Source of the DNA: Abiotrophia defectiva ATCC 49176
GTDB taxonomy: Bacteria > Bacillota > Bacilli > Lactobacillales > Aerococcaceae
Reading direction: 5' to 3'
Assembly: GCF_037041345.1 (NCBI RefSeq)
Contig: NZ_CP146287.1
Span: forward strand, 358,236 to 382,235
DNA length: 24,000 bases
The position numbers were made by a program, and so were the translations under genes. Positions 4,433 to 24,000 of this stretch are shown here, piece by piece (within the stretch, counting starts at the first letter, position 1; the number at the start of each line of letters is the position of its first letter). Under the pieces are notes generated by a model. The model ran no database searches. It was not told the origin of the DNA and worked only from the letters and a program-made list of their open reading frames with translations.

Positions 4433-4533
4433 CCGTCCCCACTTTGACACGCGGGACGGCTATTTCTAGTCATCTTGGCATCACCGTCTTATACGGCTCT
4501 GCATGGGAGTCGAGTTCGCCCTCGACTCCTTCT
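4424..4533 (-). ncRNA. Putative antisense antitoxin sRNA, convergent with the toxin 3' end
   Basis: A minus-strand promoter (see the next feature) reads toward the toxin stop codon and ends at the bidirectional terminator. The transcript contains a perfect 9-bp hairpin, GGAGTCGAG-N7-CTCGACTCC (4506-4530). That hairpin is 100% conserved in the second copy at 15.58 kb. Confidence 0.5.
4431..4461. terminator. Bidirectional intrinsic terminator shared by the toxin mRNA and the antisense RNA
   Basis: AGCCGTCCC...GGGACGGCT forms a 9-bp stem. It is flanked by AAAAAA (4424-4429), which gives the U-tract on the minus strand, and by a T-rich run on the plus side. Confidence 0.6.
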
Positions 4534-4539
4534 ATGTTT

Positions 4540-4569
4540 ATTATACTGTACAGGTTTGGAAGAAGTCAA
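4540..4569 (-). promoter_or_regulatory. Sigma-A-type promoter for the antisense RNA
   Basis: On the minus strand, -35 TTGACT is at 4564-4569 and -10 TATAAT is at 4540-4545, with an 18-nt spacer. Confidence 0.5.
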
Positions 4570-4803
4570 ATCTCTTTCTAGTTTCCACGGCAAAAGGGTA
4601 AAAAGTACAAGGAATCCTAAGGGGAGGAGAGGTCCAAGATAAGGTTATTAATGTATTGATCTTCCGCTAAATATCGAAATTTGTTGGAGGTCTAGAGAGG
4701 GGGATAAGAATACCAAGATAGATTATGGGTAGAAGTAGCGAACGGTCAAATCAAATATATTGGTCAGATGAAAAAAGTTCAAAGTTAAGAGAGGAGATAT
4801 TGC

Positions 4804-12930: not shown

Positions 12931-12961
12931 ATCAGCCACCTGTAATCGGTGGCTGATTTTT
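12931..12961 (+). terminator. Intrinsic terminator of the PTS operon
   Basis: ATCAGCCACC-tgtaatc-GGTGGCTGAT forms a 10-bp stem, followed by TTTT. Confidence 0.8.
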
Positions 12962-13006
12962 AATATGGGGAAGTGAGGTGAGGGAATATTGCCATATTAG
13001 ATAGAG

Positions 13007-13185
13007 GCACGTCGTGTTGGGAGGCAGCCACGTCGTATTGGAGGTAGCGATGTCTCGATGGACCTCCAACACGACGTGGCTCGGCAAGGAAGCGAGTATT
13101 TTGAGTCAAAAAGGGCGAAAAAGCGTGAGCCACGTCGTATTGGGAGGCAGCCATGTCTCGATGGAGGTCCAACGCGACGTGGCTC
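13007..13185. repeat. Palindromic intergenic repeat element (about 1.7 units), same family as 21101-21469
   Basis: It contains repeated 14-16-nt motifs CCACGTCG(T/C)(G/A)TTGG and their inverse CCAACRCGACGTGG. These form long hairpins, for example AGCCACGTCGTATTGGAGG...CCTCCAACACGACGTGGCT. The shared spacer is TATTTTGAGTCAAAAAGGGCGAAAAAGCG. Confidence 0.8.
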
Positions 13186-13331
13186 AAAATGTAAGCTAGG
13201 TTTAAGCTGAAAAAGGTGAGGGAGAACCCCAAAAGTCGCGAATGGCGTGCTTTTTAGCGCATATAGGTGCAAGAAGGGGTCAAATCACTAAAATAGATAA
13301 ACTATTGTTTAAAAATAATACTGTGCCATTA

Positions 13332-13360: not shown

Positions 13361-13438
13361 GGAGTTAGTGGATTAATGCACAGATGGGCGGTAACGTATG
13401 CAACCCCAAAATTCCAAGAGAATGTTAGGAGTTTAAGT

Positions 13439-14221
13439 ATGAAGTTTGGTTTACGAACACCAAGTTTAAAAAAACGCCTCTCGGCCCGAACAAGTGGCGC
13501 GATGAAACGAAAAATTAAAAGAGCTTTGATTCCCGGCTATGGGCGTAGGGGGAGAGGGTGGCTTACCAACCCTCGGAAAGCACTATATAACAAAATCTAT
13601 CGTAAAACGACAGTTGGCTGCCTTTTACCTTTTCTAATTAGCGCTAGCCTAGTAGTTGGGGGCACGTCATTTATTGCTGCAGCACCATCATCAGTGACCA
13701 TAGAGGAACGCAGTAAACAATGGATAGATGAGCATCTAAAGGATCGAACACTCTCAGAATTTACTCAAGACTTAATTAAGCTTGAAGACGAGAAGCTCAA
13801 GGAAGTAATCTTATTTGGGCACAAAAAAGGAACGCAATTGAAAGATGACTTCGATATCATTGGACGTGATGTAACAATCAAAGGGAAAGTGGTTTACATA
13901 GCGCGTCCACCTCAAAAACAGATGGATGGCAAGTACTTTGGCACCTATCTTGTCTATCTAGGAGATAAGCCAATTGAAGATTTCCAGATTATTGAAGACC
14001 ACAGTAGTACTCGTAAAGATATGTCAAAAGAAGATTTCTTTCTAGGTAAATACCCGGAGGAGAAGATTCAATTGGTACTGGTAGAGATAAAATCTAACCA
14101 GGAGCTTGAGAAGTGGACAAATGTAGAAGGTGTAGGGAATTTGAAGAACTATGTGCTTAAAGTTAAAGTAGATGGAACAGTGGAAGAGTTTTCAGCACTA
14201 ATTAATGAGTTAGAGATATAG
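13439..14221 (+). CDS. Hypothetical membrane-anchored protein: basic N-terminal motif, one TM segment and an approximately 170-aa extracytoplasmic domain
   Basis: I prefer ATG at 13439 (SD AGGAG 7 nt upstream) over the track start at 13376. The N-terminus is SLKKRLSARTSGAMKRKIKRALIPGYGRRGRGWLTNPRKALYNKIYRKTT. The TM segment is VGCLLPFLISASLVVGGTSFIAA. Confidence 0.6.
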   Translation: MKFGLRTPSLKKRLSARTSGAMKRKIKRALIPGYGRRGRGWLTNPRKALYNKIYRKTTVGCLLPFLISASLVVGGTSFIAAAPSSVTIEERSKQWIDEHLKDRTLSEFTQDLIKLEDEKLKEVILFGHKKGTQLKDDFDIIGRDVTIKGKVVYIARPPQKQMDGKYFGTYLVYLGDKPIEDFQIIEDHSSTRKDMSKEDFFLGKYPEEKIQLVLVEIKSNQELEKWTNVEGVGNLKNYVLKVKVDGTVEEFSALINELEI

Positions 14222-14270
14222 ATTTATATGAAATTCAAGGGATTTAAATTACAAAATTAGGGGAAAGCTA

Positions 14271-15365
14271 ATGAGTAAAAAAGTAGTATGTTTAATAGGT
14301 AATGGATTTGATTTAGCTCTGGGTCTCAGAACATCATATACGGATTTTCGAAACTTCATAGAGCTTAAGCATGGGAGTAAAATGTCCGAAAATCTGATTT
14401 ATAAAGCACTCGAAGAGCATACGGGGGGCAATTGGAGTGATTTAGAGAAAAAATTAGGGGAAATATTCAAGAAATCTACATGGGAAGGTATTTTTAAAAA
14501 CTCTGATTCTGTTTTAGATGGAGAGGAGTTACAGTTTTCAATTAATGAAGCAAGGGAAAATCTTATTGATGACTTAATAGAGCATCTCAAACAAGAAGAA
14601 AAAATACTAGGAAAAATTCAAATTGATGACGAAGTAAAAAATAACATGATCGAAGGTATACAACGCCTGTTTTCTCCGACGATTGAAAGAGATCAAGATA
14701 TTTTAAAAAATCATCAGAGCTTGTATGGAGAAGATATATATTTTTATACTATTAGCTTCAACTATACAGATTCTTTCTCTTATCTGTTTAATAAAATCGA
14801 GAGTAGTGATTATAGCATTGGGAGAAGTTTTTCTCGATACGCTACTCTCTATCCGCATGGGACTAGTGAAATAGGGACTACAATTGGAGTGAATGATGAG
14901 ACTCAGTTATTAGGTTATAAAGAAGGGGAAAGTGTTTTGGAGGCGGATACCGCTAAATTTATGATTAAACCTAGAAATAAAGAGCACGGGCAAGATAATC
15001 AATATGAGGATGCTCTACAACGAATCTCCATAGCTGATATCATCATAATATATGGGATGTCTTGCGGTGAGACGGACAAAGATTGGTGGGAGGCGATTGA
15101 AAAGAGACTTTTAGGGTATAAAAACTCAATCGCGATAGTTTTTAGCTATGAAACACTTCGGAGAACCCATAATAGCCAGGTAGAGAGAGTCCGGAATAGG
15201 GTCAGAAGTAAACTATGTAGTAGCTCAGAAAACATGGCTACTATAGGAAATCGAATTATTGTTGAATGTAGTAAGGACTTATTTTCCCATATTAAGAGTA
15301 AAACGGAGGAAGTACGTAAGCAAGTAGACGAAGTGCAAGTAACGAAAGAAGAGGATACTATTTGA
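14271..15365 (+). CDS. AbiH-like abortive-infection family protein
   Basis: The N-terminus VVCLIGNGFDLALGLRTSYTDFRNF and the later IIIIYGMSCGETDKDWWEAI match my memory of the AbiH (PF14253) pattern (GNGFDL..GL.TSY.DF and GhS....D..Y). The gene is AT-rich. It starts 50 nt after the upstream gene with no terminator between them. Confidence 0.65.
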   Translation: MSKKVVCLIGNGFDLALGLRTSYTDFRNFIELKHGSKMSENLIYKALEEHTGGNWSDLEKKLGEIFKKSTWEGIFKNSDSVLDGEELQFSINEARENLIDDLIEHLKQEEKILGKIQIDDEVKNNMIEGIQRLFSPTIERDQDILKNHQSLYGEDIYFYTISFNYTDSFSYLFNKIESSDYSIGRSFSRYATLYPHGTSEIGTTIGVNDETQLLGYKEGESVLEADTAKFMIKPRNKEHGQDNQYEDALQRISIADIIIIYGMSCGETDKDWWEAIEKRLLGYKNSIAIVFSYETLRRTHNSQVERVRNRVRSKLCSSSENMATIGNRIIVECSKDLFSHIKSKTEEVRKQVDEVQVTKEEDTI

Positions 15366-15470
15366 AACTTCGTCTTTAGATGTTTTATCGATGGTAAATA
15401 AGCTGCTCACAAAAGTTGAATTGTTTGTTCGTGTTGGGGAAGTTTATTTTGTGAACATAAGTTAAGATTC

Positions 15471-15510
15471 GCTCTGCCACAAACTCTTCAATAAACACGA
15501 CAAAAAATAG
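15471..15510 (+). pseudogene. 5'-truncated remnant of the holin-like toxin gene
   Basis: Only the last 13 codons plus the stop remain recognisable (..LCHKLFNKHDKK*). An in-frame TAA lies two codons upstream of the homology boundary. No start codon or SD is present. Confidence 0.55.
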
Positions 15511-15611
15511 CCGTCCCCACTTTGACTCGCGGGATGGCTATTTTTAGTCATCTTCGCATAACCTTCTTATATAGCTCTGAACGGGAGTCGAGTTCGCCCT
15601 CGACTCCTTTT
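15502..15611 (-). ncRNA. Putative orphan antisense sRNA (paralog of 4424-4533)
   Basis: On the minus strand, -35 TTGACT (15642-15647) is conserved and the -10 is weakened to AATAAT (15618-15623). The terminator hairpin lies at 15509-15539, with an A-run at 15502-15507. Confidence 0.4.
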
Positions 15612-15675
15612 GTGCTTATTATTTCGTAAGGGTTTGGGGGAAGTCAAAACTATAATGTTCAGGATAAAAATACTT

Positions 15676-15705
15676 TTGTTGTTAGTTCATTAAATCGGAT
15701 ATAAT
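15676..15705 (+). promoter_or_regulatory. Candidate promoter for the nuclease-like gene
   Basis: -35 TTGTTG is at 15676-15681 and -10 TATAAT is at 15700-15705, with an 18-nt spacer. Confidence 0.4.
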
Positions 15706-15814
15706 ATGGGTAGTATCGAATTTGTAAATCATCTCATTCAATTACGGGTGAGTTTGGTTAGAAAATGTTATAAGATATGTATAAAGAAATCTGTAATATC
15801 AATGGAGGTTGGGT

Positions 15815-16675
15815 ATGGAAAAATATACATCAGATAAAGCATTAGAGGCTATTGATTTAAGTCGAGATGAGTTGGAATGTTTGATTAGGGCGGGAAAAGA
15901 TTTAAGCGTGGAAAGTGTAAGTAACGAAGGAGAACTTGATCTTGATTTGGTCTTCATAGAGGACGGTGGCTATTATAAGGTAGGGAACTATTGGGAGCAA
16001 TATTCAACGGACGATAAGGTTTTAATAAAGCCTATACTCCTAAATGAAGAAATAGATGGTATGAAAAAGAATAGTGGCTGGATAGCAAATTTAAGAAATA
16101 GTAAAGAGGGGAAGGAATCAAAGGATGAAATTGATAATATTGACATAAATTACTTGCGTAATTCACAGAGGGCAATTGGTTACCCTCGTAGAGTTATTAA
16201 CAAAAATGCCAGTAGTATGAATGAATTCCTTCATCGTGGCCACTTGATGGCAAATGAAATAATTAGAGACTATATTAATAAGAGAATACAAGATCAACGG
16301 TGTCATATGTTTCGTTCTAAAAAGCACAGACATAATATATACGCTCAATTTAAACAATCTAATTGTTATTATAGTGATTGTTTTACTCGAAAAGGGCAAA
16401 GTTATTTTGAAAAGAACATCATAGACTATTTAAAATATAAAGAGGGCTATGTCAATTACGAAGTTCGTGCCTTATTTAAGAGTCCGGGCGATAAGGTTCC
16501 ACGAGCTAATCTATTATGTGCGAGATTCTACGATTCTTGTGGGCTGCTCGATGAGCAAGAGACATTTTGTGTTGTAATTCCAAATATGGGAAGCCTAGGG
16601 AGAGACTATAGCTCAATAGCAAGTTATAAATTTTCATATGAAGATGGGTTAATGGAACCAAGTAAAGGGAATTAA
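15815..16675 (+). CDS. DNA/RNA non-specific endonuclease-like protein (beta-beta-alpha-Me, EndA/NucA-like C-terminal domain) with an unknown acidic N-terminal domain and no signal peptide
   Basis: The start is ATG at 15815 (SD GGAGG 6 nt upstream). The C-terminal half carries HRGHLMANE (compare the DRGHL catalytic motif), NIYAQFKQSN (compare N..PQ...N) and GQSYFEKNIIDYL..VNYEVRALFKSPGDKVPRANLL. This last stretch resembles the EndA-type YYEN...YKVTPIY..ELVPR layout. The first 125 aa or so are acidic and have no hydrophobic leader. Confidence 0.6.
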   Translation: MEKYTSDKALEAIDLSRDELECLIRAGKDLSVESVSNEGELDLDLVFIEDGGYYKVGNYWEQYSTDDKVLIKPILLNEEIDGMKKNSGWIANLRNSKEGKESKDEIDNIDINYLRNSQRAIGYPRRVINKNASSMNEFLHRGHLMANEIIRDYINKRIQDQRCHMFRSKKHRHNIYAQFKQSNCYYSDCFTRKGQSYFEKNIIDYLKYKEGYVNYEVRALFKSPGDKVPRANLLCARFYDSCGLLDEQETFCVVIPNMGSLGRDYSSIASYKFSYEDGLMEPSKGN

Positions 16676-16741
16676 CCATAAAAAGGTAAAGAGTAATTGA
16701 AAAAATAAGACATCAATGAGTAGGTTGTCCAATAAAGTCAC

Positions 16742-16770
16742 CCCGTGCTTATAAAGCACGGGTTATTTGT
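16742..16770 (+). terminator. Intrinsic terminator after the nuclease-like gene
   Basis: CCCGTGCT-tataa-AGCACGGG forms the stem, followed by TTATTTGT. Confidence 0.7.
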
Positions 16771-16888
16771 ATGGATTTAAAAATCAAATAACCACAAGAA
16801 TTCTAAACTCTAGCGCAAGAATGAGCAAGATATTTTGAGGCTGCTAAGTTATACTCAGGATAGATTACCAAATTTTGGAGGGATATTA

Positions 16889-17152
16889 ATGGGATTTTTG
16901 GATAATGCAAAGAATGAAAGTAGCTATTCAGTAGCGTCTGGTAGAGATTTGAATTATGTGGTTTTACAGGTAACCCTGAAGGAAAAATTTATTGGGACGG
17001 GTTCTGGAAATCTAGCGGAGCTAGAGGAAGTCATTAACAGACAAGCTGCAAAAGGATATAGACTTCATACTATTGCGACAAGTAATGGTGGCAGCAAAGG
17101 CTTTATGGGCGGAGATAGAATCCAGGCTACACTAGTTTTTGAGTCGCTTTAG
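16889..17152 (+). CDS. Small DUF4177-like protein
   Basis: The start is ATG at 16889 (SD GGAGGG), giving 87 aa. The pattern YVVLQV...GNLAELEEVINRQAAKGYRLHTIA...ATLVFE resembles DUF4177 (WEYKVV...LN.LG.EGWELVSV...VFKR). Confidence 0.5.
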   Translation: MGFLDNAKNESSYSVASGRDLNYVVLQVTLKEKFIGTGSGNLAELEEVINRQAAKGYRLHTIATSNGGSKGFMGGDRIQATLVFESL

Positions 17153-17285
17153 CGTTTACTAGAATGAATAAGGTAAAGGGATGAAGGTATGCCAGAAAAT
17201 AACCTAGATATACTGAGCATGCGACATGTCAAGCATGATAAATGATTGTATCATGCGCGCAGGGGACGTGTTAAGTATCCTATAG

Positions 17286-17316
17286 AAGAGGGCCGTAAAA
17301 GGCTCTTTTTATTTTT
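17286..17316 (+). terminator. Intrinsic terminator in the ORF-free gap
   Basis: AAGAGGGCC-gtaaaa-GGCTCTTTT forms the stem, followed by a long T-run (TTTTTATTTTT). Confidence 0.5.
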
Positions 17317-17712
17317 GGAATAAGACACTACCATTTGAGGGACATGGCGCAATCATATTCGATCAAATCAGGCCAACAGAATTGACAGTTTCTGTCTCAA
17401 TCGTTCGCTTGTCTACCTTTAAAACTCTCTCGTCTCATACTGTAATGTGCACACGCTCATTTGATGATTCAAATACCAACAGCCCATCACTAAGCCATTC
17501 CTTAGACCATAATATTGCTCAAAATGAATTTTGTTGCAAATTATGAAATCATTTAGTGAAGGGCTTTCTTTCTAGAATTTCTGGGCGTATAATATAACTA
17601 TAGTAAGTTAAGGCGGATTCTCTCTCTCGTTTGGCTCCATGGTTAAGCAGTTAGGTAGAAGTCGTCTTTTTGCTATATCAAGATAAATTCTATAAGAAAG
17701 GAGAGTTACTTT

Positions 17713-18018
17713 ATGAGAGAGATGCAGCAAATTCAGATCAGCTACCAATACGATCATGAGCGTCTCTATGAGGCACTTAAGCGGAGAGGCATGACCGAGC
17801 GTGCGTTGGCAGAGAAAATCTATTGTTCGCCCGCTACGGTCTCTCGCATCTTCAATGGTTGTGGCCGTCTAAGCATTGAGACCATCATTATGGTCTGTCT
17901 AGCTATGAAACTAACAGTTGAAGAGCAGCTTGAGATTTTCTATTTCTCTTGTATGGGTATCTTGCACCATTTAGGGGTGAGTATGGGCGATACCCAAGAC
18001 ACTAAATTCGACATATGA
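17713..18018 (+). CDS. XRE-family helix-turn-helix regulator
   Basis: The protein is 101 aa. The HTH is MTERALAEKIYCSPATVSRIFNG. The SD is AAGGAGAG. This is the first gene of the GC-rich module. Confidence 0.7.
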   Translation: MREMQQIQISYQYDHERLYEALKRRGMTERALAEKIYCSPATVSRIFNGCGRLSIETIIMVCLAMKLTVEEQLEIFYFSCMGILHHLGVSMGDTQDTKFDI

Positions 18019-18185
18019 CATCAGGAGGCACAGTTTATAAAGTTGTTATATTGGCTCAATATAATTACTCGAGTTGTGGTTAACCACAACTCAGAAAAGA
18101 ATCGTGACTGGACAAGAAAGTTATACATAAGAATAGATAATGTTGTTGAATAGGTTTTTATGACTATTTGGAAGGAAGAAAAACC

Positions 18186-19349
18186 ATGAAATTCGATGAT
18201 TTAGAAAATTTAAATTTAGATAGCATCAGGGAGCAGATTTTAGCCTATGCGGTTCAGCTTACTCAGTCCTATTGGGAGATTGGTCGGCGGTTGCATTATG
18301 CCAAGCAGTCTTTGTTGTCAGAAGATGGATTTCTACCATGGTTAGAGACGCTTTATATCGATTATCCCGAGGCTAATCGCATGATGTATGTAGCCAAGAA
18401 TTTACCTAAGATGAAGTGCTACGAGCATCTAGGCTTATCGCTACTTTATCTGATCGCAACTATCCCCGAGGAACATCGTCAGAAGATTTATACTTTACCT
18501 TCAGGCAAATGTAAGTACCTGCATCAAATGTCTCAGTTAGAACTTCGGACCGTTAAGCGGCTGTTGAAAGCGGGACAGTTGGAGTCTTGCTTCCAAGGAG
18601 ATAGTCAGTTACAAGTTGACTGTCAAGAGGTGAAGAAGGAGACACAGGATGCCGTCTCGCCTGAAGCAAGTCAGGCTAGAGCACCGCAAGCTCCTGCTAC
18701 CAATCAAGCTACTACGCAACAGGTTCCAACCAGCCCTCAAGCTGACGGGCTTCAGCCTGACGCCCAATCGGACGATGCTATACACCAATCTAGACAGCCC
18801 CAGACTAAGTTGCTTACCCCAAGTCAAGATCTCAAGTCCAACCCCCTAGCTCCCAAGCTAGCCGAGGCGGAGGCGACTAACCAGCGCCTAAGAGAATCCC
18901 TTAAGCAGGCTAATGCCAAGTATCAGGAAGACCTACAATCTATCGAGGAGCGCTACCGTTATCTCAAGCGATTCCGGGAGGGTTTATCGCATTTCGCTAA
19001 TCGGTCCACGACCTTCATTCCGGATTTGGAGGGTCTTAATCGCATCATCGCCTTCAGTCATGAGATTGACCACTTGCTAGTTAAGCTGGCGCCTATGCGC
19101 TATATCGATGACTTTAAGGCGATTCAGAATCAGGTCATGGTCGACCATTACCTCAAGCAGATTGACCGAGTAGATGACTGGGTCCAATCCATGCGTGCTA
19201 GCATCCATCAAGCCCAAGCAGTAGGCCGGCGAGATGTGACATCTGAGGGGGCTGATGGCCAAGCTCGGCCTCAACAAGCAAGCTATGGCCCTAGCGAACC
19301 TAAGACTAACTTCTCTAACTCAACACAAGAAAATCAAGCCGTTGCATAA
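18186..19349 (+). CDS. DUF3102-like protein with a Q/P/A-rich low-complexity linker and a C-terminal coiled-coil region
   Basis: I prefer ATG at 18186. The N-terminus SYWEIGRRLHYAKQSLLSEDGFLPWLETL..YPEANRMMYVAKN fits the DUF3102 pattern (IG..L..AK..L.HG.W..WL). The low-complexity stretch is QARAPQAPATNQATTQQVPTSPQADGLQPDAQ. Confidence 0.55.
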   Translation: MKFDDLENLNLDSIREQILAYAVQLTQSYWEIGRRLHYAKQSLLSEDGFLPWLETLYIDYPEANRMMYVAKNLPKMKCYEHLGLSLLYLIATIPEEHRQKIYTLPSGKCKYLHQMSQLELRTVKRLLKAGQLESCFQGDSQLQVDCQEVKKETQDAVSPEASQARAPQAPATNQATTQQVPTSPQADGLQPDAQSDDAIHQSRQPQTKLLTPSQDLKSNPLAPKLAEAEATNQRLRESLKQANAKYQEDLQSIEERYRYLKRFREGLSHFANRSTTFIPDLEGLNRIIAFSHEIDHLLVKLAPMRYIDDFKAIQNQVMVDHYLKQIDRVDDWVQSMRASIHQAQAVGRRDVTSEGADGQARPQQASYGPSEPKTNFSNSTQENQAVA

Positions 19350-19366
19350 TATAAGGAGGAACTACC

Positions 19367-19810
19367 ATGGAAACAGCAACACCAAGTACATTGAACAATC
19401 AAATGACTAGCCTAGAAGCCCAAGTCCAAGCTCAACACCAGTTGCTGGGGCAGATTAACAGCCATCTCCAAGTTTTAACGACTCTCTTAGAGCACCAACC
19501 CCTGTCACCTGAGGCCACTTATGCCCTAACGCGTTTGCGCCGTCATGAGATCCACCAACGCCTAGGGGACAAGGACCGCTTACTAACGGCTCGACGTCCG
19601 GAACTGGTGCGTCTGGTCTATCGGACGGCACGCCTGGCCTTCCTCAGTCATTTTAGCTTATCCAGCTATGGGCATCTACCACAAGAGCGATATGAAGCTG
19701 CTGTCAGCTTCTGGAAGGAATGGAAGGTCCCGGTCGACTTGCAGGCTAAGCTAGACCAAGCCTATAAGGACTTGGCTCAAGACCGGCCTCAACTCCATGC
19801 AGTTGCCTAA
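19367..19810 (+). CDS. Hypothetical phage-type protein, possibly with an ORF6C-like C-terminal domain
   Basis: The protein is 147 aa. The SD is AAGGAGGA. The C-terminal segment LVRLVYRTARLAFLSHFSLSSYGHLPQERYEAAVSFWKEW resembles ORF6C domains of phage antirepressor-type proteins. Confidence 0.45.
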   Translation: METATPSTLNNQMTSLEAQVQAQHQLLGQINSHLQVLTTLLEHQPLSPEATYALTRLRRHEIHQRLGDKDRLLTARRPELVRLVYRTARLAFLSHFSLSSYGHLPQERYEAAVSFWKEWKVPVDLQAKLDQAYKDLAQDRPQLHAVA

Positions 19811-19833
19811 CTAGGGATAAGGAGGGAACAGCT

Positions 19834-20367
19834 ATGACTTCCGACCATTATCCCTTGGACCAGGAGCAACTCCTGGCCCGCTACCGACTTTTGTTACATC
19901 ATGTCTTGCACCAATACCATCTCTTGGCTGAGGATCAAGACTATGACGATTACTACAATGAACTTTACCTACACCTTGTCCGCCTAGCCCGCGACTTCGA
20001 TGGGGACGCGCTCAGCGAGTCTGACCGCTTCCGATTCGTGGGCTATGCTCAGCGGGGCCTGAGTTGGCATCTGGGTCAACTCCTAGCCAAACGATCACGT
20101 CAGGCTCAAGGCCTGATTGGCAATCAGAAGGTCCTGCATTTTGCCGAACAGGCTGGCGCCAGTCGCCCGCCTATGGACGACTTGGTCAACTCGCTGCTGC
20201 TGTCGCAAGTCTTGTCGCCAACCGATTATCATTTCCTCTGTGTGGCCCAGAACGAGCAACTCTCGCTTGGGGCCAAATGCCAAGAGCTGGGCATATGTAA
20301 GAATACCTACTATGCCCGCCTAAAGCGCCTACGCCAGACCCTGCAAGCAAGCGACTGGTCGGCTTAA
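19834..20367 (+). CDS. Sigma-70-like / ArpU-type transcriptional regulator (candidate late-gene activator)
   Basis: The protein is 177 aa. The region-2-like stretch is YYNELYLHLVRLARDF. The C-terminal region-4-type HTH is LSLGAKCQELGICKNTYYARLKRLRQTL. The SD is AAGGAGGG. Confidence 0.6.
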   Translation: MTSDHYPLDQEQLLARYRLLLHHVLHQYHLLAEDQDYDDYYNELYLHLVRLARDFDGDALSESDRFRFVGYAQRGLSWHLGQLLAKRSRQAQGLIGNQKVLHFAEQAGASRPPMDDLVNSLLLSQVLSPTDYHFLCVAQNEQLSLGAKCQELGICKNTYYARLKRLRQTLQASDWSA

Positions 20368-20456
20368 GTGCCTACGCCAGACCTTGAAAGCTAGCGATTG
20401 GTCGGCTTGAGTGCCTGCGTCAGACACTGCAAGCCAGTGACTGGTCAGCTTGAGTG
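20328..20456 (+). repeat. Three tandem 43-nt units, plus a partial fourth, overlapping the sigma-like gene's 3' end
   Basis: The units lie at 20328-20370, 20371-20413 and 20414-20456. Each contains a 39-nt segment reading LRQTL(Q/K)ASDWSA plus a stop codon, followed by GTGC. Confidence 0.9.
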
Positions 20457-20478
20457 CCTTGCTCAGCTCTTTTTCTCC

Positions 20479-20506
20479 AGCTCCCGCAGAGGGGGCTTTT
20501 TATTTT
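20479..20506 (+). terminator. Intrinsic terminator after the repeat stack
   Basis: AGCTCCC-gcaga-GGGGGCT forms a stem with one G-U pair, followed by TTTTTATTTT. Confidence 0.65.
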
Positions 20507-20608
20507 GCAGAAAAATAAATTTTTAGGGCTGACTTGGGCATGAGGAGGGGGCTTAATTCTTTTTAAGTATGTAACGTTACAAGAAACTAGTTCAAGGAGT
20601 GATTCATT

Positions 20609-20806
20609 ATGGCACGATCATATGTTAAGGGTATCCTCAAGTTCAAGTCCCTAGATGAGAACAAGAAGGCGGAGAATGTTTCCATGCCCAACCTAGTAGA
20701 GAACGCTAGCGCCGAGGACATCAAGTCCGTGCGCGACGCTATTGCTACCCTGGTTGAGCATCCCATCACCGAGACCCAGGTGACCGAGGTCTTCAGCGTC
20801 AACTAG
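20609..20806 (+). CDS. DUF1659-like small protein
   Basis: The protein is 65 aa. The SD is AAGGAG. The pattern LKFKSLDENKK...NLVENASAEDIKSVRDAIATL resembles DUF1659. It is paired with a DUF2922-like gene, as is usual for this family. Confidence 0.5.
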   Translation: MARSYVKGILKFKSLDENKKAENVSMPNLVENASAEDIKSVRDAIATLVEHPITETQVTEVFSVN

Positions 20807-20848
20807 TCGGCTTGTTGAGTAGAGCAGTGAATTAAGGAGGAACCCATC

Positions 20849-21088
20849 ATGGCTAACAAAACCATTAAGACTTTTGAGATGAATTTCGCGACCGCAGACG
20901 GCAAGTCTAAGAAGATTAGCCTGCGCCACGCCAAGGCAGACATCACCAAGGACCAGGCCAAAGCCGCCATGGCCACCATCGTAGGCAAGGACATCTTCAC
21001 CAAGGACGCCGTCGACCAGTTCGCCAAGGAGAAGACCGCCAACTACGTCACCCGCACCGTAGAGGAAGTCTACAAGGCTGAGGCTTAG
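20849..21088 (+). CDS. DUF2922-like small protein
   Basis: The protein is 79 aa. The SD is AAGGAGGA. The pattern KTFEMNFATADGKSKKISLRHAKADITKDQAKAAM resembles DUF2922. Confidence 0.5.
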   Translation: MANKTIKTFEMNFATADGKSKKISLRHAKADITKDQAKAAMATIVGKDIFTKDAVDQFAKEKTANYVTRTVEEVYKAEA

Positions 21089-21100
21089 GGTGAGTTGGGC

Positions 21101-21469
21101 GCCCCGCCATGTCGTGTTGGAAGAGCGCCATGTCGCATTGGGCCTCCAACGCGACGTGGCTAAGGCGGCACGCCCTATTTTAGCTCAGAAAATGGCGAAA
21201 AGCGCCCGCCACGTCGTGTTGGGCGTGAGCCACGTCGCTTTGGGCTTCCAACGCGACATGGCTAAGGCGGTACGCCCTCTTTTAACTCAGAAAATGGCGA
21301 AAAAGCGCCCGCCACGTCGTGTTGGGAGTGAGCCACGTCGCATTGGGGCTCCAATACGACATGGCTGCGGCAGGAAACTCCCTTTTAGCCTGAAAAATGG
21401 CGAAAGAGCACCCGCCACGTCGTGTTGGGCGTGAGCCACGTCGCATTGGGCTTCCAACGCGACATGGCT
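21101..21469. repeat. Tandem palindromic repeat element, about 3.6 units of 102-103 nt
   Basis: The motif CCAYGTCGTGTTGG starts at 21107, 21209, 21312 and 21415. Each unit has two direct motifs (CCACGTCGTGTTGG, AGCCACGTCGCATTGG) and one inverted motif (CCAACGCGACATGGCT), plus the spacer TTTTAGCTCAGAAAATGGCGAAAAGCG. Confidence 0.85.
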
Positions 21470-21494
21470 CAGCCAAAGACACCTAGTATCTTAC

Positions 21495-21611
21495 GAGCCA
21501 GTCCATAGATAGGGGGAACGGTGGACTGGCTCGGTCGCTAGGTGGCGAAAACCGGGCATTTTACTGGATTTGCGACAAGCTAGTCCATGGATAGCTAGAA
21601 CAATGGACTGG
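21495..21611 (+). promoter_or_regulatory. Two related stem-loops upstream of the lysis genes (function unknown)
   Basis: Hairpin 1 is GAGCCAGTCCA-N16-TGGACTGGCTC (21495-21532). Hairpin 2 is CTAGTCCAT-N14-ATGGACTGG (21580-21611). Both share AGTCCAT.GATAG....AAC..TGGACT. Confidence 0.4.
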
Positions 21612-21659
21612 CGCCAGCCACTCAGCCACCCCATCATTATTCAGAAAGGAGCCTTCATC

Positions 21660-22019
21660 ATGACATGGCTACAGCTTACGACGCTGGCGTCCGGCCTAGT
21701 CGCGGGCGCGACCCTCCTGGGCAAGTTGGTGCGCCTGATTGCGGCGATCCAGACGCTGATTCTTCGAATCGAGCGCATGCAGACGGACTTAGCTAGCACG
21801 CAGAGTAACCTGCAAGGCGCGCAAGCCAGTCTTGCGACAACTCAGGATAACTTACATGCCACGCAAAATGACCTAGCCACCACCCAAGCCAAGCTCCAGG
21901 TCACTCAGACCGACCTAGGTGCCACCCAGACTCAAGTCACAACAGTTGCACAGGACCTGTCCCGCGTCCGCCAACGTCTGGGACGTCTGGAAGACAAGCG
22001 GGTCCACAGTCTGGCTTGA
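21660..22019 (+). CDS. N-terminal TM protein with eight perfect heptads (L-x-x-T/A-Q-x-x); lysis-module accessory protein in the XhlA-like position
   Basis: I prefer ATG at 21660 (SD AAAGGAG 8 nt upstream). The TM segment is WLQLTTLASGLVAGATLLGKLV. The heptads LASTQSN LQGAQAS LATTQDN LHATQND LATTQAK LQVTQTD LGATQTQ VTTVAQD span 21789-21956. Confidence 0.55.
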   Translation: MTWLQLTTLASGLVAGATLLGKLVRLIAAIQTLILRIERMQTDLASTQSNLQGAQASLATTQDNLHATQNDLATTQAKLQVTQTDLGATQTQVTTVAQDLSRVRQRLGRLEDKRVHSLA

Positions 22020-22067
22020 CGCAGCCAGGCACTTCTATCTCTAAGCAAAGAAAGCGAGGCAGTCATT

Positions 22068-22301
22068 ATGCATCTTCCCACTAGTCGCAAGGCCTATACG
22101 ACGATTCAATGGATGGCACTGATCCTGATTCCGGCGCTAGCGGTCCTAGTCCAAGGTCTAGCCGAACTCTATGCCTGGCCCGACCCCTGGCCTCGTCGCC
22201 TGGTTGGCACCCTCAATCTAGTCGGCGTCTTCCTAGGGGCGCTACTTCAAGGCTGGCATTATGGCCGACGCAAGACTAGGAGCAAGGCAAAGTCCGCTTA
22301 G
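22068..22301 (+). CDS. Holin (two TM segments and a basic C-terminal tail)
   Basis: The protein is 77 aa. The TM segments are WMALILIPALAVLVQGLA and LVGTLNLVGVFLGALLQ. The tail is GRRKTRSKAKSA. The gene lies immediately upstream of the endolysin. Confidence 0.6.
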   Translation: MHLPTSRKAYTTIQWMALILIPALAVLVQGLAELYAWPDPWPRRLVGTLNLVGVFLGALLQGWHYGRRKTRSKAKSA

Positions 22302-22377
22302 GCTCTCCGCTCACGCCCTTAGCCACATAGCCCGCACTCCAAACCCATCTCATCCCATCCAAAGGAGGAACCCACTC

Positions 22378-23058
22378 ATGAAGCCACAAATTCAACAACT
22401 CCTATCCAAGGCCCAAGCCTACCTAGGCGTCCAAGGCGGAAGTCCCACCCATCAGGGCCTCGTTGATGCCTATAACGCTGTCCAACCCCTGCCGGTCGGC
22501 TACGCAGTTACCTACAGCGACGACTGGTGCGATGTCTTCGTTACCGTCATGGGAGACCAGGCCGGCATCGCTCATCTGATTGGGCGCGAATGCGGCGTGC
22601 CTCGTCATCTGACCTGGTGCCAAGAGCAGGGCATCTGGCTAGGCCATGTCTGGCCTCAAGCTGGCGATCTGATTTTCTTCGATTTTGGGGGTGGGCCTGC
22701 ATCTCACATCGGCATTGTGGAAAGTGTGGACGGCGACAGCGAAACCGTCAATACTATTGAGGGTAACTGGCTCAACCAGGTTGTCCGCCGTCATTATGCT
22801 AGTGACGACTGGCGCATCCTAGGTTATGCCCGGCCTCAATATGATGCGAGGGCTGGGAGTGTAGCCACTGGCAGTGAAGCTGGGGGAGCTAATCATCCGA
22901 ATGGCTGTGTCGATGCAGCTAGCGACCTAGATGAAGTGGTCTGGTCAGTTATCCGAGGTGACTGGGGCAATGGACAGGAACGAATCGACCGGCTAACTGA
23001 TGCGGGTTATGATGCGCAAGTTCTGCAGGAATTGGTGAATGAGAAATTGGCAAGTTAG
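22378..23058 (+). CDS. Endolysin: N-terminal CHAP domain plus a C-terminal CW_7 (Cpl-7-like) cell-wall-binding motif
   Basis: The start is ATG at 22378 (SD AAAGGAGGA). The CHAP catalytic Cys context is YSDDWCDVFV and the His context is ASHIGIVESV...NTIEGN. The C-terminal VIRGDWGNGQERIDRLTDAGYDAQVLQELVN matches the CW_7 repeat consensus. Confidence 0.8.
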   Translation: MKPQIQQLLSKAQAYLGVQGGSPTHQGLVDAYNAVQPLPVGYAVTYSDDWCDVFVTVMGDQAGIAHLIGRECGVPRHLTWCQEQGIWLGHVWPQAGDLIFFDFGGGPASHIGIVESVDGDSETVNTIEGNWLNQVVRRHYASDDWRILGYARPQYDARAGSVATGSEAGGANHPNGCVDAASDLDEVVWSVIRGDWGNGQERIDRLTDAGYDAQVLQELVNEKLAS

Positions 23059-23104: not shown

Positions 23105-23133
23105 TTGAGAATTTTAGGCATTTATGGTATAAT
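23105..23133 (+). promoter_or_regulatory. Near-consensus promoter in the AT-rich CRISPR leader
   Basis: -35 TTGAGA is at 23105-23110. After a 17-nt spacer comes the extended -10 TGGTATAAT at 23125-23133. This is about 90 nt upstream of the first repeat. Confidence 0.6.
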
Positions 23134-23223
23134 AAAGAGTAGTAATTAAGGGAGTATCTGATACTAGAAAACCCTTGAAATCTATATATTGTATATCGTG
23201 TCTAGGGTGACACAAGATATAGA

Positions 23224-23473
23224 GTTCAGATACCTTAATCCCCGAGAGGGGACGGAAACTACCGCCGTTCAGTTCATCATCAATCGGCGTTAAGTCGTTC
23301 AGATACCTTAATCCCCGAGAGGGGACGGAAATATGTATAATCTTTGGTTTTCTTATTGAATTGGTCTGTTCAGATACCTCATTCCCCGCGAGGGGACGGA
23401 AACTTCTAAAGCGTACTGCGATTGTGGTTTTTTTAACATTTAGATACCTCATTCCCCGCAAGGGGTCAAAAAG
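23224..23473 (+). CRISPR. Mini-CRISPR array with 4 repeats (36 nt) and 3 spacers (37, 35 and 34 nt); the repeat is type III-A-like
   Basis: The repeats start at 23224, 23297, 23368 and 23438. R1 is GTTCAGATACCTTAATCCCCGAGAGGGGACGGAAAC. R2 is identical except the last base is T. R3 has 3 substitutions. R4 is degenerate (ATTTAGATACCTCATTCCCCGCAAGGGGTCAAAAAG), which puts the trailer on the right and the leader on the left. The 3' half CCCCGAGAGGGGACGGAAAC closely matches the S. thermophilus CRISPR2 (III-A) repeat as I remember it. Confidence 0.85.
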
Positions 23474-23608
23474 GCACAACCATAACTTAGTACTAACCCT
23501 AGGTTGGCCTTATATAAACAAAACAACGCTAGCGTCAACTAGCGTTGTTTTTATAGTATTTTATTCGTATAATATGACTGTATCCTACCATCAAAAGGAG
23601 CCCTCACC

Positions 23609-24000
23609 GTGTCCAATTATTTTCAATCGCAACTTACTAAATCTCTCCAGCATGGCTTCATTCATCGCCATGACTATCCGGATGGCAACTATGCCCCGCA
23701 GATTCTCATTAATAAGCCGGCCAAGGGGGCCCATGTTCTCACCGCTATTCAAGATGAGCTTCTTAAGTGTGATCGTTTCTACTTCTCTGTGGCCTTTATC
23801 TCCAAGGCTGGGATTGCCATGCTTAAGACTCAACTCTCGGATCTGGCTGATCGCGGGGTAGAAGGCTACATCCTGATTTCGCCCTATCTAGGTTTCAATG
23901 ATCCGGATGCTATGCGGGAGCTGCTCAAGCTATCCAATGTTCAGGTGCGGCTGACCCGTGAGGAGCTCAATATGCATGCCAAGTGCTATCTCTTCCAACA
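23609..24000 (+). CDS. N-terminal PLD-like (HKD) nuclease domain of a probable DUF3427-type helicase; the 3' end lies outside the window
   Basis: This ORF is not in the supplied track because it runs off the edge. The start is GTG at 23609 (SD AAAGGAG 8 nt upstream). My translation is MSNYFQSQLTKSLQHGFIHRHD...YAPQILINKP...RFYFSVAFISKAGIAMLKTQLSDLADRGVEGYILISPYLGFNDP...NMHAKCYLFQ. It contains the HxK motif (HAK). Confidence 0.65.
   Translation, partial: MSNYFQSQLTKSLQHGFIHRHDYPDGNYAPQILINKPAKGAHVLTAIQDELLKCDRFYFSVAFISKAGIAMLKTQLSDLADRGVEGYILISPYLGFNDPDAMRELLKLSNVQVRLTREELNMHAKCYLFQ

What the first reader, a model, noticed from the sequence alone, without database searches (positions are those of the whole stretch)
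15660..17320. Signal-less non-specific-endonuclease-like protein with a novel N-terminal domain, followed by a DUF4177-like protein, in an AT-rich islet
**What the sequence shows**
- The C-terminal half of the 15815-16675 product carries the RGH catalytic motif (HRGHLMANE) and the downstream N/Q/E pattern of EndA/NucA-type beta-beta-alpha-Me nucleases.
- Those nucleases are normally secreted or membrane-anchored because they degrade any nucleic acid.
- This protein has no signal peptide or TM segment. Instead it has an acidic domain of about 125 aa that I cannot place.

**Interpretation (inference)**
- A cytoplasmic non-specific nuclease must be held inactive. That is the logic of abortive-infection effectors or of toxin-immunity pairs.
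- The next gene, after a terminator and under its own SD, is a small DUF4177-like protein of unknown function. It could be an inhibitor, an immunity factor or a partner.

**Context**
- Neighbours are an AbiH-like gene, a TA remnant and a phage-like module.
- Composition is AT-rich relative to the surrounding genes.
- Both points fit a defense islet.
Basis: partly seen in the sequence, partly recalled or inferred. Interest (0 to 1): 0.68.

Follow-up and report, generated by a model that had tools for sequence, protein, structure and literature searches.

The report
Leaderless EndA-like nuclease in defence hotspot
This Abiotrophia defectiva gene encodes a complete EndA/NucA-type DNA/RNA-cutting enzyme that lacks the usual export signal and sits in a strain-variable anti-phage gene slot, while the small DUF4177 gene after it is a common prophage gene and probably not its partner.

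Summary
The ORFs, the HRGH motif, the terminator, the ribosome-binding sites, the AT-rich composition and the AbiH neighbour are all real. The 286-aa protein has no direct Pfam, NCBIfam, PADLOC or PHROG hit. A profile of its family matches the EndA and NucA crystal structures (E = 5e-21 and 2e-18). An AlphaFold model (pLDDT 81, pTM 0.85) matches them over nearly its full length. The catalytic residues (H143, N183, E199, Q178) are invariant.

The "novel acidic N-terminal domain" appears to be the N-terminal beta-sheet half of the EndA/NucA fold. Its acidity is not conserved in the family.

The absence of a signal peptide is genuine: an in-frame stop lies 7 codons upstream, and none of 35 family members has a hydrophobic segment.

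The gene lies in a variable slot (14079-17439). Another Abiotrophia genome carries SLATT+SMODS there. Distant relatives sit beside AbiD, Fic/PDC-S04 or AlbA_2+HsdS genes, or alone between rplA and rplJ.

The immunity-pair idea is not supported. The DUF4177 type has about 4,900 clusters and lies in streptococcal prophage lysogeny modules without this nuclease. No distant nuclease locus carries it. It stays 95-98% identical while nuclease alleles are 57-66% identical.

Most likely this is a stand-alone intracellular nuclease effector. How it is kept harmless is unknown.

The parts
14079..17439 (.). Strain-variable cargo slot (AT-rich islet) between conserved flanks
   Evidence: blastn of the window against Abiotrophia sp. 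locus L012: the flanks align at 90-95% and this segment is replaced by 2.4 kb carrying SLATT_4 + SMODS-AGS_C. GC is 0.32-0.38.
14271..15365 (+). AbiH-family abortive-infection gene (independent neighbour)
   Evidence: Pfam AbiH 3.9e-30 and PADLOC AbiH 8e-08. It is absent from locus L004 and only partly matched in L001 (64% over aa 154-364), so it is not a fixed partner.
15471..15651 (+). Remnant of a Hol_Tox (type I toxin-like) gene 3' end plus two terminator hairpins; 88% copy of 4393-4573
   Evidence: the repeat finder family D3 and alignment. The intact ORF 4286-4432 hits Pfam Hol_Tox at 7.8e-07. Terminator-like hairpin at 15583-15608.
15700..15705 (+). Candidate -10 box (TATAAT) of the nuclease gene's own promoter
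   Evidence: Read directly from the sequence. Essentially conserved in the aligned alleles; five read TATAAT and L028 reads GATAAT. The promoter role is inferred; the consensus scan did not list it.
15804..15808 (+). Shine-Dalgarno GGAGG of the nuclease gene
   Evidence: Sequence, conserved in 6 alleles.
15815..16675 (+). Leaderless EndA/NucA-type beta-beta-alpha-Me nuclease, 286 aa (identical to WP_338543065.1, 'hypothetical protein', Abiotrophia defectiva)
   Evidence: Family profile against PDB: EndA 3OWV 4.9e-21, NucA 4QGO 1.7e-18. AF2 model pLDDT 81.4, pTM 0.85. Foldseek to EndA/NucA about 1e-11. Identity to the NCBI record.
16232..16243 (+). HRGH motif (aa 140-143); H143 corresponds to the general base His160 of EndA
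   Evidence: G142 and H143 are invariant in 35 sequences. Register with EndA/NucA. Role of His160 from PMC3074123.
16334..16411 (+). Second strand and helix D of the metal finger: N174, Q178, N183 (= EndA Asn191, Mg2+ ligand), a hypervariable finger-loop (aa 184-194), E199 (= EndA Glu205)
   Evidence: Invariant columns, alignment register, residue roles. The model's secondary structure is E175-179, H180-183, a break, then H195-208.
16742..16772 (+). Intrinsic-terminator-like hairpin and T-run after the nuclease gene
   Evidence: 9-bp stem with 6 GC pairs; 6 terminator-like sites found in the region against 1.3 expected.
16889..17152 (+). DUF4177 protein, 87 aa (WP_338543067.1), a phage-borne lysogeny-module gene type; probably functionally independent of the nuclease
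   Evidence: Pfam DUF4177 6.3e-06. phrog_22683 1.4e-45. 54 streptococcal phage or satellite records. 4,859 clusters.
17285..17310 (+). Terminator-like hairpin after the DUF4177 gene

Best explanation
**What it is.** The 15815-16675 gene encodes a complete EndA/NucA-type (DRGH-class, His-Me finger group 5) Mg2+-dependent sugar-non-specific nuclease. It has lost, or never had, the N-terminal signal or membrane anchor of its secreted relatives, so it stays in the cytoplasm.

**Family and setting.** It belongs to a small Lactobacillales family (Abiotrophia, Ligilactobacillus, Streptococcus ruminantium and metagenomic members; 36 representatives at 50% identity). Its members are single-gene cargo of small variable islets and defence hotspots.

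**Most likely function (inferred).** It is a stand-alone intracellular nuclease effector against invading DNA, or an abortive-infection-type suicide nuclease. H143 would activate the attacking water. N183, with E199 and Q178 through the hydration shell, would hold the Mg2+.

**Control.** The control that keeps it harmless is intrinsic or acts in trans, and is not encoded by an adjacent dedicated gene.

**The DUF4177 gene.** It is a separately transcribed, very widespread prophage lysogeny-module gene that happens to be a neighbour.

**Shown:** fold, catalytic residues, lack of a leader, hotspot variability, defence-gene neighbourhoods, fast protein evolution with a conserved active site.

**Inferred:** nuclease activity, intracellular action, anti-phage role.
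For: - **Fold and family.**
  - The family profile hits EndA at 4.9e-21 and NucA at 1.7e-18.
  - Foldseek matches EndA/NucA at about 1e-11, ahead of Sda1, Spd1 and EndoG.
  - Distant family members pass the Pfam Endonuclease_NS / Endonuclea_NS_2 thresholds.
- **Active site.** G142, H143, N174, Q178, N183 and E199 are invariant. They map to EndA His160, Gln186, Asn191 and Glu205, which are experimentally essential.
- **Leaderless.**
  - There is an upstream in-frame stop and a conserved start.
  - No hydrophobic segment occurs in any of 35 members.
- **Hotspot.** The slot is replaced by SLATT_4 + SMODS-AGS_C in L012.
- **Neighbours of family members.**
  - AbiH.
  - DUF2971, which hits PADLOC PDC-S31.
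  - Fic, which hits PDC-S04 at 2e-91.
  - AbiD plus an IS.
  - AlbA_2 + HsdS.
  - An integrase fragment.
- **No adjacent partner needed.** One member is a solo insertion between rplA and rplJ.
- **Under selection.** All alleles keep an intact ORF. dN/dS is 0.3-0.6, against 0.02-0.2 for neighbouring genes.
Against: - No hit to any PADLOC 2023 defence model.
- No paper in the library describes such a system.
- An always-active non-specific nuclease in the cytoplasm should be lethal. Wild-type EndA historically had to be purified from S. pneumoniae or made in cell-free systems. No control mechanism was identified here.
- Context evidence rests on about 8 informative loci, several on short contigs.
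- All close homologs come from one syntenic locus in one genus.
- Activity and localisation are untested.
- dN/dS below 1 does not prove diversifying selection.
Confidence: 0.5

Rival explanations
1. Toxin-immunity or inhibitor pair. The DUF4177 protein would bind and neutralise the nuclease, as NuiA does for Anabaena NucA or EsaG for EssD.
For: The two genes are adjacent and co-directional in all 7 Abiotrophia loci that carry the nuclease. Both are absent from the alternative allele L012.
Against: - All those loci are one orthologous locus.
- DUF4177 of this type has 4,859 clusters against 17 for the nuclease.
- It occurs in 54 phage or satellite records without this nuclease, in the order repressor, ImmA-like protease, DUF4177, integrase.
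- tblastn finds no DUF4177 in any distant nuclease locus.
- One nuclease is a solo insertion between rplA and rplJ.
- A terminator separates the two genes.
- There is no co-diversification. DUF4177 is 95-98% identical against 57-66% for the nuclease, and dS is discordant between the two genes.
Confidence: 0.08
2. Lysis-released extracellular nuclease. The enzyme would be made without a leader and reach the outside when part of the population lyses, for example through the conserved holin plus CHAP/CW_7 lysin cassette 5 kb downstream. It would then degrade eDNA or neutrophil traps, or feed nucleotide scavenging, as the secreted streptococcal DNases do.
For: - The closest structural relatives are extracellular virulence or competence DNases.
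- A conserved phage-derived regulator, holin and lysin module lies at 17.4-23.1 kb in every Abiotrophia locus.
- Abiotrophia is an oral and endocarditis organism (my own knowledge).
Against: - Distant homologs are not next to lysis cassettes.
- This does not solve cytoplasmic toxicity.
- The gene is strain-variable while the lysis cassette is fixed.
Confidence: 0.12
3. Substrate-restricted housekeeping or accessory nuclease. It would act, for example, on RNA, ssDNA or damaged or structured nucleic acid. It would not be toxic and not be a defence factor.
For: - It exists as a solo gene without any inhibitor.
- The first position of the DRGH motif is H, not D.
- By my reading of the motif register, the EndA DNA-binding pair Arg209/Lys210 falls on I203/D204 in the window protein (residue roles; register).
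- The finger-loop and hairpin loop are divergent.
Against: - It is strain-variable and absent from every GTDB species-representative genome.
- It evolves fast.
- It is repeatedly embedded among defence and mobile genes.
Confidence: 0.12
4. Interbacterial or addiction toxin exported or controlled by an unidentified route, such as T7SS-type leaderless export as for EssD/LXG nucleases.
For: The Endonuclea_NS_2 fold is used by T7SS and polymorphic toxins (PMC5714182). BFVD hits carry 'EssD-like' names.
Against: - There is no LXG/WXG or other delivery domain. From about residue 18 (by my motif mapping), the HMM and Foldseek alignments cover almost the whole protein with the mature NucA enzyme.
- No T7SS genes are in the window.
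- No conserved immunity gene exists.
Confidence: 0.05
5. Decaying, non-functional remnant of a secreted nuclease gene that lost its leader.
For: Neighbouring remnants exist: a Hol_Tox fragment, and in L001 an AbiH region that is only partly matched (64% over aa 154-364) and is called there as short ORFs. The nuclease's dN/dS is elevated.
Against: - The ORFs are intact in the full-length homologs (14 of the 17 clusters cover at least 98% of the query; the shorter ones sit on short contigs) and across a family as divergent as 21-30% identity.
- The N-terminus, start codon, ribosome-binding site and -10 box are conserved.
- The catalytic residues are invariant and dN/dS is clearly below 1.
Confidence: 0.04

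Closest known systems
EndA (Streptococcus pneumoniae, PDB 3OWV) and NucA/Gbs0661 (S. agalactiae, PDB 4QGO/4QH0): DRGH-motif beta-beta-alpha-Me DNA/RNA non-specific nucleases (Pfam PF13930/PF01223; His-Me finger group 5)
   Same: - Same predicted fold over nearly the whole length.
- Same catalytic set: His in the xRGH motif, the Asn Mg2+ ligand, Glu and Gln.
- Same break of helix D right after the metal-binding Asn (finger-loop).
- Same C-terminal 'V(F/L)(I/V)PN' strand.
   Different: - No signal peptide or membrane anchor.
- HRGH instead of DRGH.
- A longer and hypervariable hairpin loop and finger-loop.
- The window protein itself falls below the Pfam thresholds.
- It is strain-variable islet cargo, not a conserved competence or virulence gene.
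Prophage-encoded streptococcal DNases Spd1 and Sda1 (PDB 2XGR/2XH3, 5FGW)
   Same: Same superfamily fold, and associated with prophage-derived DNA.
   Different: - Those are secreted, and lie between the lysin gene and attR (my own knowledge).
- The matches are weaker (E about 1e-5).
- This gene has no leader and lies upstream of the remnant's regulatory genes.
Nuclease-inhibitor or toxin-immunity pairs of the same fold (Anabaena NucA-NuiA; S. aureus EssD/EsaD-EsaG; YxiD-YxxD)
   Same: A non-specific nuclease of the same superfamily that needs neutralisation inside the producer (PMC5714182).
   Different: No conserved adjacent inhibitor gene and no delivery domain. DUF4177 fails every linkage test applied here.
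Single-gene abortive-infection or defence candidates of Lactobacillales (AbiH, AbiD; PADLOC candidates PDC-S04 Fic and PDC-S31 DUF2971)
   Same: Same genomic niche: small, AT-rich, strain-variable, stand-alone genes in hotspots, often side by side.
   Different: Unrelated folds. This family is not in PADLOC-DB 2.0 and has no phenotype on record.

Membership tests
EndA/NucA-type DRGH beta-beta-alpha-Me non-specific nucleases (PF13930/PF01223) | Catalytic general-base His at the end of the (D)RGH motif | tested here: met
   HRGH at aa 140-143. G142 and H143 are invariant in 35 sequences and align to EndA His160, which is Ala in the crystal construct. The first motif position is H, not D.
EndA/NucA-type DRGH beta-beta-alpha-Me non-specific nucleases (PF13930/PF01223) | Asn that ligates Mg2+ on helix D (EndA Asn191), plus Glu205 and Gln186 equivalents | tested here: met
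   N183, E199 and Q178 are invariant. The register N-I-x-x-Q-x-x-x-x-N ... GQxY(F/Y)E is identical to EndA and NucA. Roles from PMC3074123.
EndA/NucA-type DRGH beta-beta-alpha-Me non-specific nucleases (PF13930/PF01223) | Significant sequence-profile match to the family | tested here: met
   The window protein alone has no Pfam hit. The close-homolog profile scores E = 0.0075 against NucA. The 35-sequence profile scores 4.9e-21 against EndA and 1.7e-18 against NucA. Distant members pass the PF01223/PF13930 cut-offs.
EndA/NucA-type DRGH beta-beta-alpha-Me non-specific nucleases (PF13930/PF01223) | Fold: metal finger inserted in a large beta-sheet, with helix D interrupted by a finger-loop | tested here: met
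   AF2 model pLDDT 81.4, pTM 0.85. Foldseek probability 1.00, E about 1e-11, target-normalised TM-score 0.63-0.69 to 3OWV/4QGO/4QH0. This is a predicted structure, not a solved one.
EndA/NucA-type DRGH beta-beta-alpha-Me non-specific nucleases (PF13930/PF01223) | N-terminal signal peptide or membrane anchor (typical of the characterised members, though not a catalytic requirement) | tested here: not met
   In-frame stop at 15794-15796. Hydrophilic N-terminus. Maximum KD19 is 0.66 for the window protein and below 1.6 in all 35 members.
EndA/NucA-type DRGH beta-beta-alpha-Me non-specific nucleases (PF13930/PF01223) | Mg2+-dependent non-specific DNA/RNA cleavage | not testable with these tools
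   Needs enzyme assays.
Nuclease toxin + cognate immunity/inhibitor pair | Partner gene adjacent and conserved across the nuclease family | tested here: not met
   DUF4177 is found only in the Abiotrophia locus. tblastn finds none in the distant loci tested (L018-L025), and none is called in L031-L033. One member is a solo insertion between rplA and rplJ.
Nuclease toxin + cognate immunity/inhibitor pair | Co-transcription and co-evolution of the two genes | tested here: not met
   A terminator-like hairpin lies between them and DUF4177 has its own ribosome-binding site. DUF4177 is 95-98% identical against 57-66% for the nuclease, and pairwise dS is discordant.
Nuclease toxin + cognate immunity/inhibitor pair | Physical binding and neutralisation | not testable with these tools
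   No multimer prediction was available. Needs co-expression or pull-down.
Anti-phage defence / abortive-infection genes | Residence in strain-variable defence islands or hotspots | tested here: met
   The slot 14079-17439 alternates with SLATT_4 + SMODS-AGS_C. Neighbours are AbiH, AbiD, PDC-S04, PDC-S31 and AlbA_2 + HsdS. A type IIG RM gene and a CRISPR array lie in the same window.
Anti-phage defence / abortive-infection genes | Match to a described defence protein model | tested here: not met
   No PADLOC-DB 2.0 hit at E <= 1.
Anti-phage defence / abortive-infection genes | Protection against phage | not testable with these tools
   Needs phage challenge.
DUF4177 (PF13783), for the 16889-17152 product | Score above the Pfam gathering threshold | tested here: met
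   26.8 bits against a cut-off of 25, E = 6.3e-06. phrog_22683 1.4e-45. NCBI names the identical protein 'DUF4177 domain-containing protein'.

The most novel reading that the evidence does not exclude
The leaderless EndA-like proteins could be a previously undescribed single-gene anti-phage system of Lactobacillales. It would be a fully non-specific nuclease kept silent in the cytoplasm by an intrinsic switch and unleashed by infection. The switch might be conformational or oligomeric control through the fast-evolving N-terminal hairpin, the hairpin loop or the finger-loop. The fast evolution of exactly those surface elements would then reflect an arms race with phage triggers or inhibitors.
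Probability: 0.3. Interest if true: 0.65.

Novelty: new variant of a known kind. Interest (0 to 1): 0.42.

Why it matters
EndA/NucA-type nucleases are known as secreted or surface enzymes used for competence, NET escape and virulence. They are also known as toxin domains paired with immunity proteins.

A compact clade that keeps the whole catalytic machinery, has no export signal and no linked inhibitor, and travels as single-gene cargo in defence hotspots raises a concrete question. How does a cell tolerate such an enzyme, and what releases it?

If it is a defence effector, it adds a simple nuclease-only module to the Gram-positive anti-phage repertoire. It also gives a name to proteins now annotated as "hypothetical".

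The negative result matters too. DUF4177 proteins of this type should be treated as a very conserved prophage lysogeny-module gene of unknown role, not as nuclease immunity factors.

Tried and rejected
- **Direct family scans.** Scans of the 286-aa protein against Pfam, NCBIfam, PADLOC and PHROGs gave nothing useful. Single-sequence phmmer against PDB gave nothing.
- **Shallow structure model.** AlphaFold with only the 18 close homologs failed (pLDDT 39). It worked only after adding distant relatives.
- **Public collections.**
  - The close-homolog profile A1 found no relative in the GTDB species-representative genomes.
  - The 35-sequence alignment A2 could not be used for that scan, because it has no conserved stretch to search with.
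  - There was no match in the phage collection by DNA or protein.
- **LRR match.** Residues 5-55 match repeats of giant proteins, but those are LRR proteins. The match reflects an LxxLxLSxxEL-like pattern, not homology.
- **N-terminal half alone.** A profile of it does not find EndA/NucA or anything else in PDB. Its assignment to the EndA/NucA fold therefore rests on three things: the single-unit model, the near-full-length Foldseek alignment, and the HMM alignment that extends to NucA residue 12.
- **Acidic DNA-mimic idea.** Rejected, because the net charge of that half ranges from -14 to +17 across the family, with a median of -1.
- **Leader hairpin.** A terminator-like hairpin in the 5' leader (15733-15752) is not supported by compensatory changes among alleles.
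- **AbiH or DUF2971 as partners.** Rejected, because each is present in only some nuclease-bearing loci.
- **DUF4177 against PDB.** No sequence relatives.
- **Literature.** Searches on DUF4177 and on defence roles of Endonuclease_NS found nothing relevant.
Full report
**1. What is in the sequence**

The + strand carries a 286-codon ORF at 15815-16675. It starts at an ATG six bases after a GGAGG. An in-frame TAA at 15794-15796 means it cannot be extended upstream.

It is followed by a terminator-like hairpin at 16742-16762. Next comes an 87-codon ORF at 16889-17152 with its own GGAGGG, then a second hairpin at 17285-17310. The region has 6 terminator-like sites against 1.3 expected.

GC is 0.32-0.38 across 14001-17000, against roughly 0.42-0.49 to the left and 0.41-0.59 to the right.

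- The upstream gene 14271-15365 is a clear AbiH (Pfam 3.9e-30).
- The small ORF passes the Pfam DUF4177 threshold (26.8 against 25 bits).
- The stretch 15471-15651 is an 88% copy of 4393-4573. It holds the last 12 codons and the terminators of a Hol_Tox toxin gene, whose intact copy is 4286-4432.

**2. The nuclease**

The protein alone hits nothing in Pfam, NCBIfam, PADLOC, PHROGs or PDB. It has 17 close homolog clusters. An exhaustive HMM scan of 1.84 billion representatives found only 36 proteins at E <= 0.001.

Several distant members pass the Pfam cut-offs for Endonuclease_NS or Endonuclea_NS_2.

A 35-sequence alignment (A2) has these invariant residues: G142, H143, N174, Q178, N183, E199 and N257.

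Its profile matches the crystal-structure sequences of EndA (3OWV, 4.9e-21) and NucA (4QGO, 1.7e-18). The register gives these correspondences:

| Window protein | EndA residue | Role in EndA |
|---|---|---|
| H143 | His160 | general base |
| Q178 | Gln186 | hydrogen bond to a Mg2+-coordinating water |
| N183 | Asn191 | Mg2+ ligand |
| E199 | Glu205 | crucial for catalysis |

Mutagenesis showed that His160, Asn191 and Glu205 are needed for EndA activity; Q186A only reduced it (PMC3074123).

With this deeper alignment AlphaFold gives pLDDT 81.4 and pTM 0.85. A model from the shallow alignment had pLDDT 39. Foldseek then ranks EndA and NucA first (E about 1e-11, probability 1.00, 268-286 aligned columns, target-normalised TM-score 0.63-0.69). 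Sda1, Spd1 and EndoG follow.

The model's secondary structure is strand 139-143, strand 175-179, helix 180-183, a break, then helix 195-208. This reproduces the EndA-type metal finger, with helix D interrupted right after the metal-binding Asn.

**3. The "novel N-terminal domain"**

Residues 1-125 are indeed acidic (net -10), but they are not a separate module.

- The model is a single compact unit.
- The Foldseek alignment spans almost the entire query.
- The HMM alignment to NucA runs from chain residue 12. It includes a hairpin that reads LVFIEDGGYYKV in the window protein and LPFQYVNGIYEL in NucA.

A caveat applies. A profile of the N-terminal half alone finds nothing in PDB, so this assignment is structural, not independently sequence-based.

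The acidity is not conserved; it ranges from -14 to +17. An apparent match of residues 5-55 to giant proteins is an LRR-like pattern, not homology.

**4. Leaderless status**

- No family member has a hydrophobic segment. The maximum 19-residue Kyte-Doolittle mean is below 1.6 in all 35.
- The start codon, ribosome-binding site and a TATAAT box are conserved in six alleles.
- The refutation condition "homologs routinely carry signal peptides" is therefore not met.

**5. Organism and locus**

The protein is identical to WP_338543065.1, "hypothetical protein", from Abiotrophia defectiva. The DUF4177 protein is identical to WP_338543067.1. The flanking aminotransferase matches Abiotrophia genomes at 96%.

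All close homologs lie at the same syntenic place. The order is: PTS/peptidase operon, aminotransferase, variable genes, nuclease, DUF4177, sometimes DUF2971, then a conserved phage-derived module. That module runs HTH, ORF6C, sigma-like gene, DUF1659, DUF2922, holin and CHAP/CW_7 lysin.

Against an Abiotrophia sp. genome, the window segment 14079-17439 is replaced by SLATT_4 plus SMODS-AGS_C. This is a defence hotspot with alternative cargo.

**6. Evolution**

Between loci whose flanking genes are 94-100% identical at protein level, the nuclease is only 57-66% identical. DUF4177 is 95-98% identical.

| Gene | Pairwise dN/dS |
|---|---|
| Nuclease | 0.3-0.6 |
| DUF4177 | 0.05-0.2 |
| HTH gene | 0.02-0.13 |
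| Aminotransferase | about 0.15 |

Change concentrates in the N-terminal 60 residues, in aa about 93-135, in the loop after HRGH (33-aa insertions in two alleles), in the finger-loop and in the C-terminus. The catalytic residues stay fixed.

dS values of the nuclease and DUF4177 are discordant between pairs of loci. The two genes have therefore recombined independently.

**7. DUF4177**

- The protein matches phrog_22683 (1.4e-45).
- It matches 54 streptococcal phage or satellite records at 74-78% identity. There it follows the repressor and an ImmA-like metalloprotease and precedes an Abi or Fic gene or the integrase.
- None of those phages encodes this nuclease.
- It has 4,859 clusters in the big protein collection, with about 80% identity even in Clostridia and Erysipelotrichia.
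- tblastn found no DUF4177 in the distant nuclease loci tested (L018-L025), and none is called in the three loci fetched later.
- One nuclease is a solo insertion between rplA and rplJ.

Together with the terminator and the lack of co-variation, this argues strongly against a dedicated inhibitor or immunity role.

**8. Neighbourhoods of distant relatives**

- Fic, matching PADLOC candidate PDC-S04 at 2e-91.
- AbiD plus IS elements.
- AlbA_2 overlapping the nuclease stop, followed by HsdS.
- An integrase fragment next to rpsI.
- DUF2971, matching PDC-S31, in the Abiotrophia loci.

Five of about eight informative contexts have known or candidate defence genes immediately adjacent.

**9. Interpretation**

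The best-supported reading is a stand-alone, cytoplasmic EndA/NucA-type nuclease carried as defence-hotspot cargo. The chemistry can be inferred with high confidence: His-activated water, with Mg2+ held by Asn183 and by Glu199 and Gln178 through the hydration shell.

The biological role is inferred from context. It could be anti-phage or anti-plasmid, and possibly abortive. I put it at about 0.5.

How the cell tolerates the enzyme is unexplained. No adjacent inhibitor is conserved.

Rivals retain some probability: a DUF4177 inhibitor, a lysis-released DNase, a substrate-restricted accessory nuclease, an exported toxin, or a relic.

**10. Novelty**

The enzyme family is well known. The leaderless, solo, hotspot-resident clade is not described in PADLOC 2.0 or in the searched literature. 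The window protein and its Ligilactobacillus relatives are annotated as hypothetical, while the Streptococcus ruminantium member is named 'DNA/RNA non-specific endonuclease'.

I rate it a new variant of a known kind, of moderate interest. Those were the novel domain and the DUF4177 immunity partner.

Noticed in passing
window 23224-23472: A short CRISPR-like array: four 35-nt repeats (GTTCAGATACCTTAATCCCCGAGAGGGGACGGAAA) spaced 70-73 nt apart. From memory, the repeat's 3' end resembles type III-A repeats. ORFs 23114-23479(-) and 23361-23861(+) overlap it and are probably spurious.
   Followed up: no
window 13004-13230 and 21103-21509: Related tandem repeats of about 103 nt (2 and 4 copies) with a palindromic core (GCCACGTCG...CGACGTGGC). 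They bracket the region from the variable slot to the lysis genes. ORFs called inside them (12932-13272 on both strands, 21090-21434) look spurious. There was no Rfam hit. The nature of the repeat is unknown.
   Followed up: partly
window 17440-23058 (also L001, L004, L012): A phage-derived module with no structural genes, conserved in all Abiotrophia loci. It contains a Cro/CI-type HTH, a DUF3102-like gene, ORF6C, a sigma-like/HTH gene, DUF1659, DUF2922, a coiled-coil protein, a Dp-1-type holin and a CHAP+CW_7 lysin. GC is 0.49-0.59 over about 18.5-23 kb, against about 0.42-0.47 for the chromosomal genes. It looks like a domesticated regulator-plus-lysis cassette.
   Followed up: partly
window 20317-20445: Three tandem 43-nt repeats that start inside the 3' end of the sigma-like gene (19834-20367) and continue past its stop. 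They repeat the C-terminal coding sequence.
   Followed up: no
window 4286-4432 and 15471-15651: An intact Hol_Tox (putative holin-like toxin) small ORF, followed by two terminator hairpins. A 181-nt, 88% identical copy of its 3' end lies just upstream of the nuclease gene. The same element occurs in loci L004 and L012.
   Followed up: partly
window 1-4119: The ORF is open to the first base of the window and may continue upstream of it. It encodes a fusion of at least 1,372 aa: a ResIII/SNF2 helicase and an Eco57I-type methyltransferase (PADLOC REase_MTase_IIG, 1.9e-43). It is another defence gene in the same window.
   Followed up: partly
L012 10608-12474 (Abiotrophia sp. MAG, same chromosomal slot): The alternative cargo of the hotspot is a SLATT_4 two-TM effector plus a SMODS-AGS_C nucleotidyltransferase. 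This is a CBASS-like pair.
   Followed up: yes
L008, L009, L010 (Streptococcus phages Javan514 and Javan64, satellite Javan303): The DUF4177 gene type sits in the lysogeny module, directly after the repressor and an ImmA/IrrE-like metalloprotease and before an Abi or Fic gene or the integrase. It is about 75-83% identical across several Firmicutes classes, which is unusually conserved for a phage accessory gene. Its function is unknown.
   Followed up: partly
L019, L018, L020 (Ligilactobacillus and metagenomic contigs): The intergenic gap between rplA and rplJ acts as an insertion site for small cargo. It holds the leaderless nuclease alone, or the nuclease plus a Fic/PDC-S04 gene.
   Followed up: partly
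window 13376-14221: A 281-aa protein with one predicted TM segment. Residues 22-82 match several PHROG families (down to 5e-26). It is conserved at the left edge of the variable slot, and the breakpoint at 14079 lies inside its 3' end.
   Followed up: no
P0029, P0031, P0037, P0048 (distant nuclease homologs): Four family members carry an extra conserved C-terminal extension of about 130-150 aa. P0029, the only one of the four scanned against Pfam, had no match for the extension at the E <= 0.01 limit used. It may be a regulatory or sensor domain.
   Followed up: no
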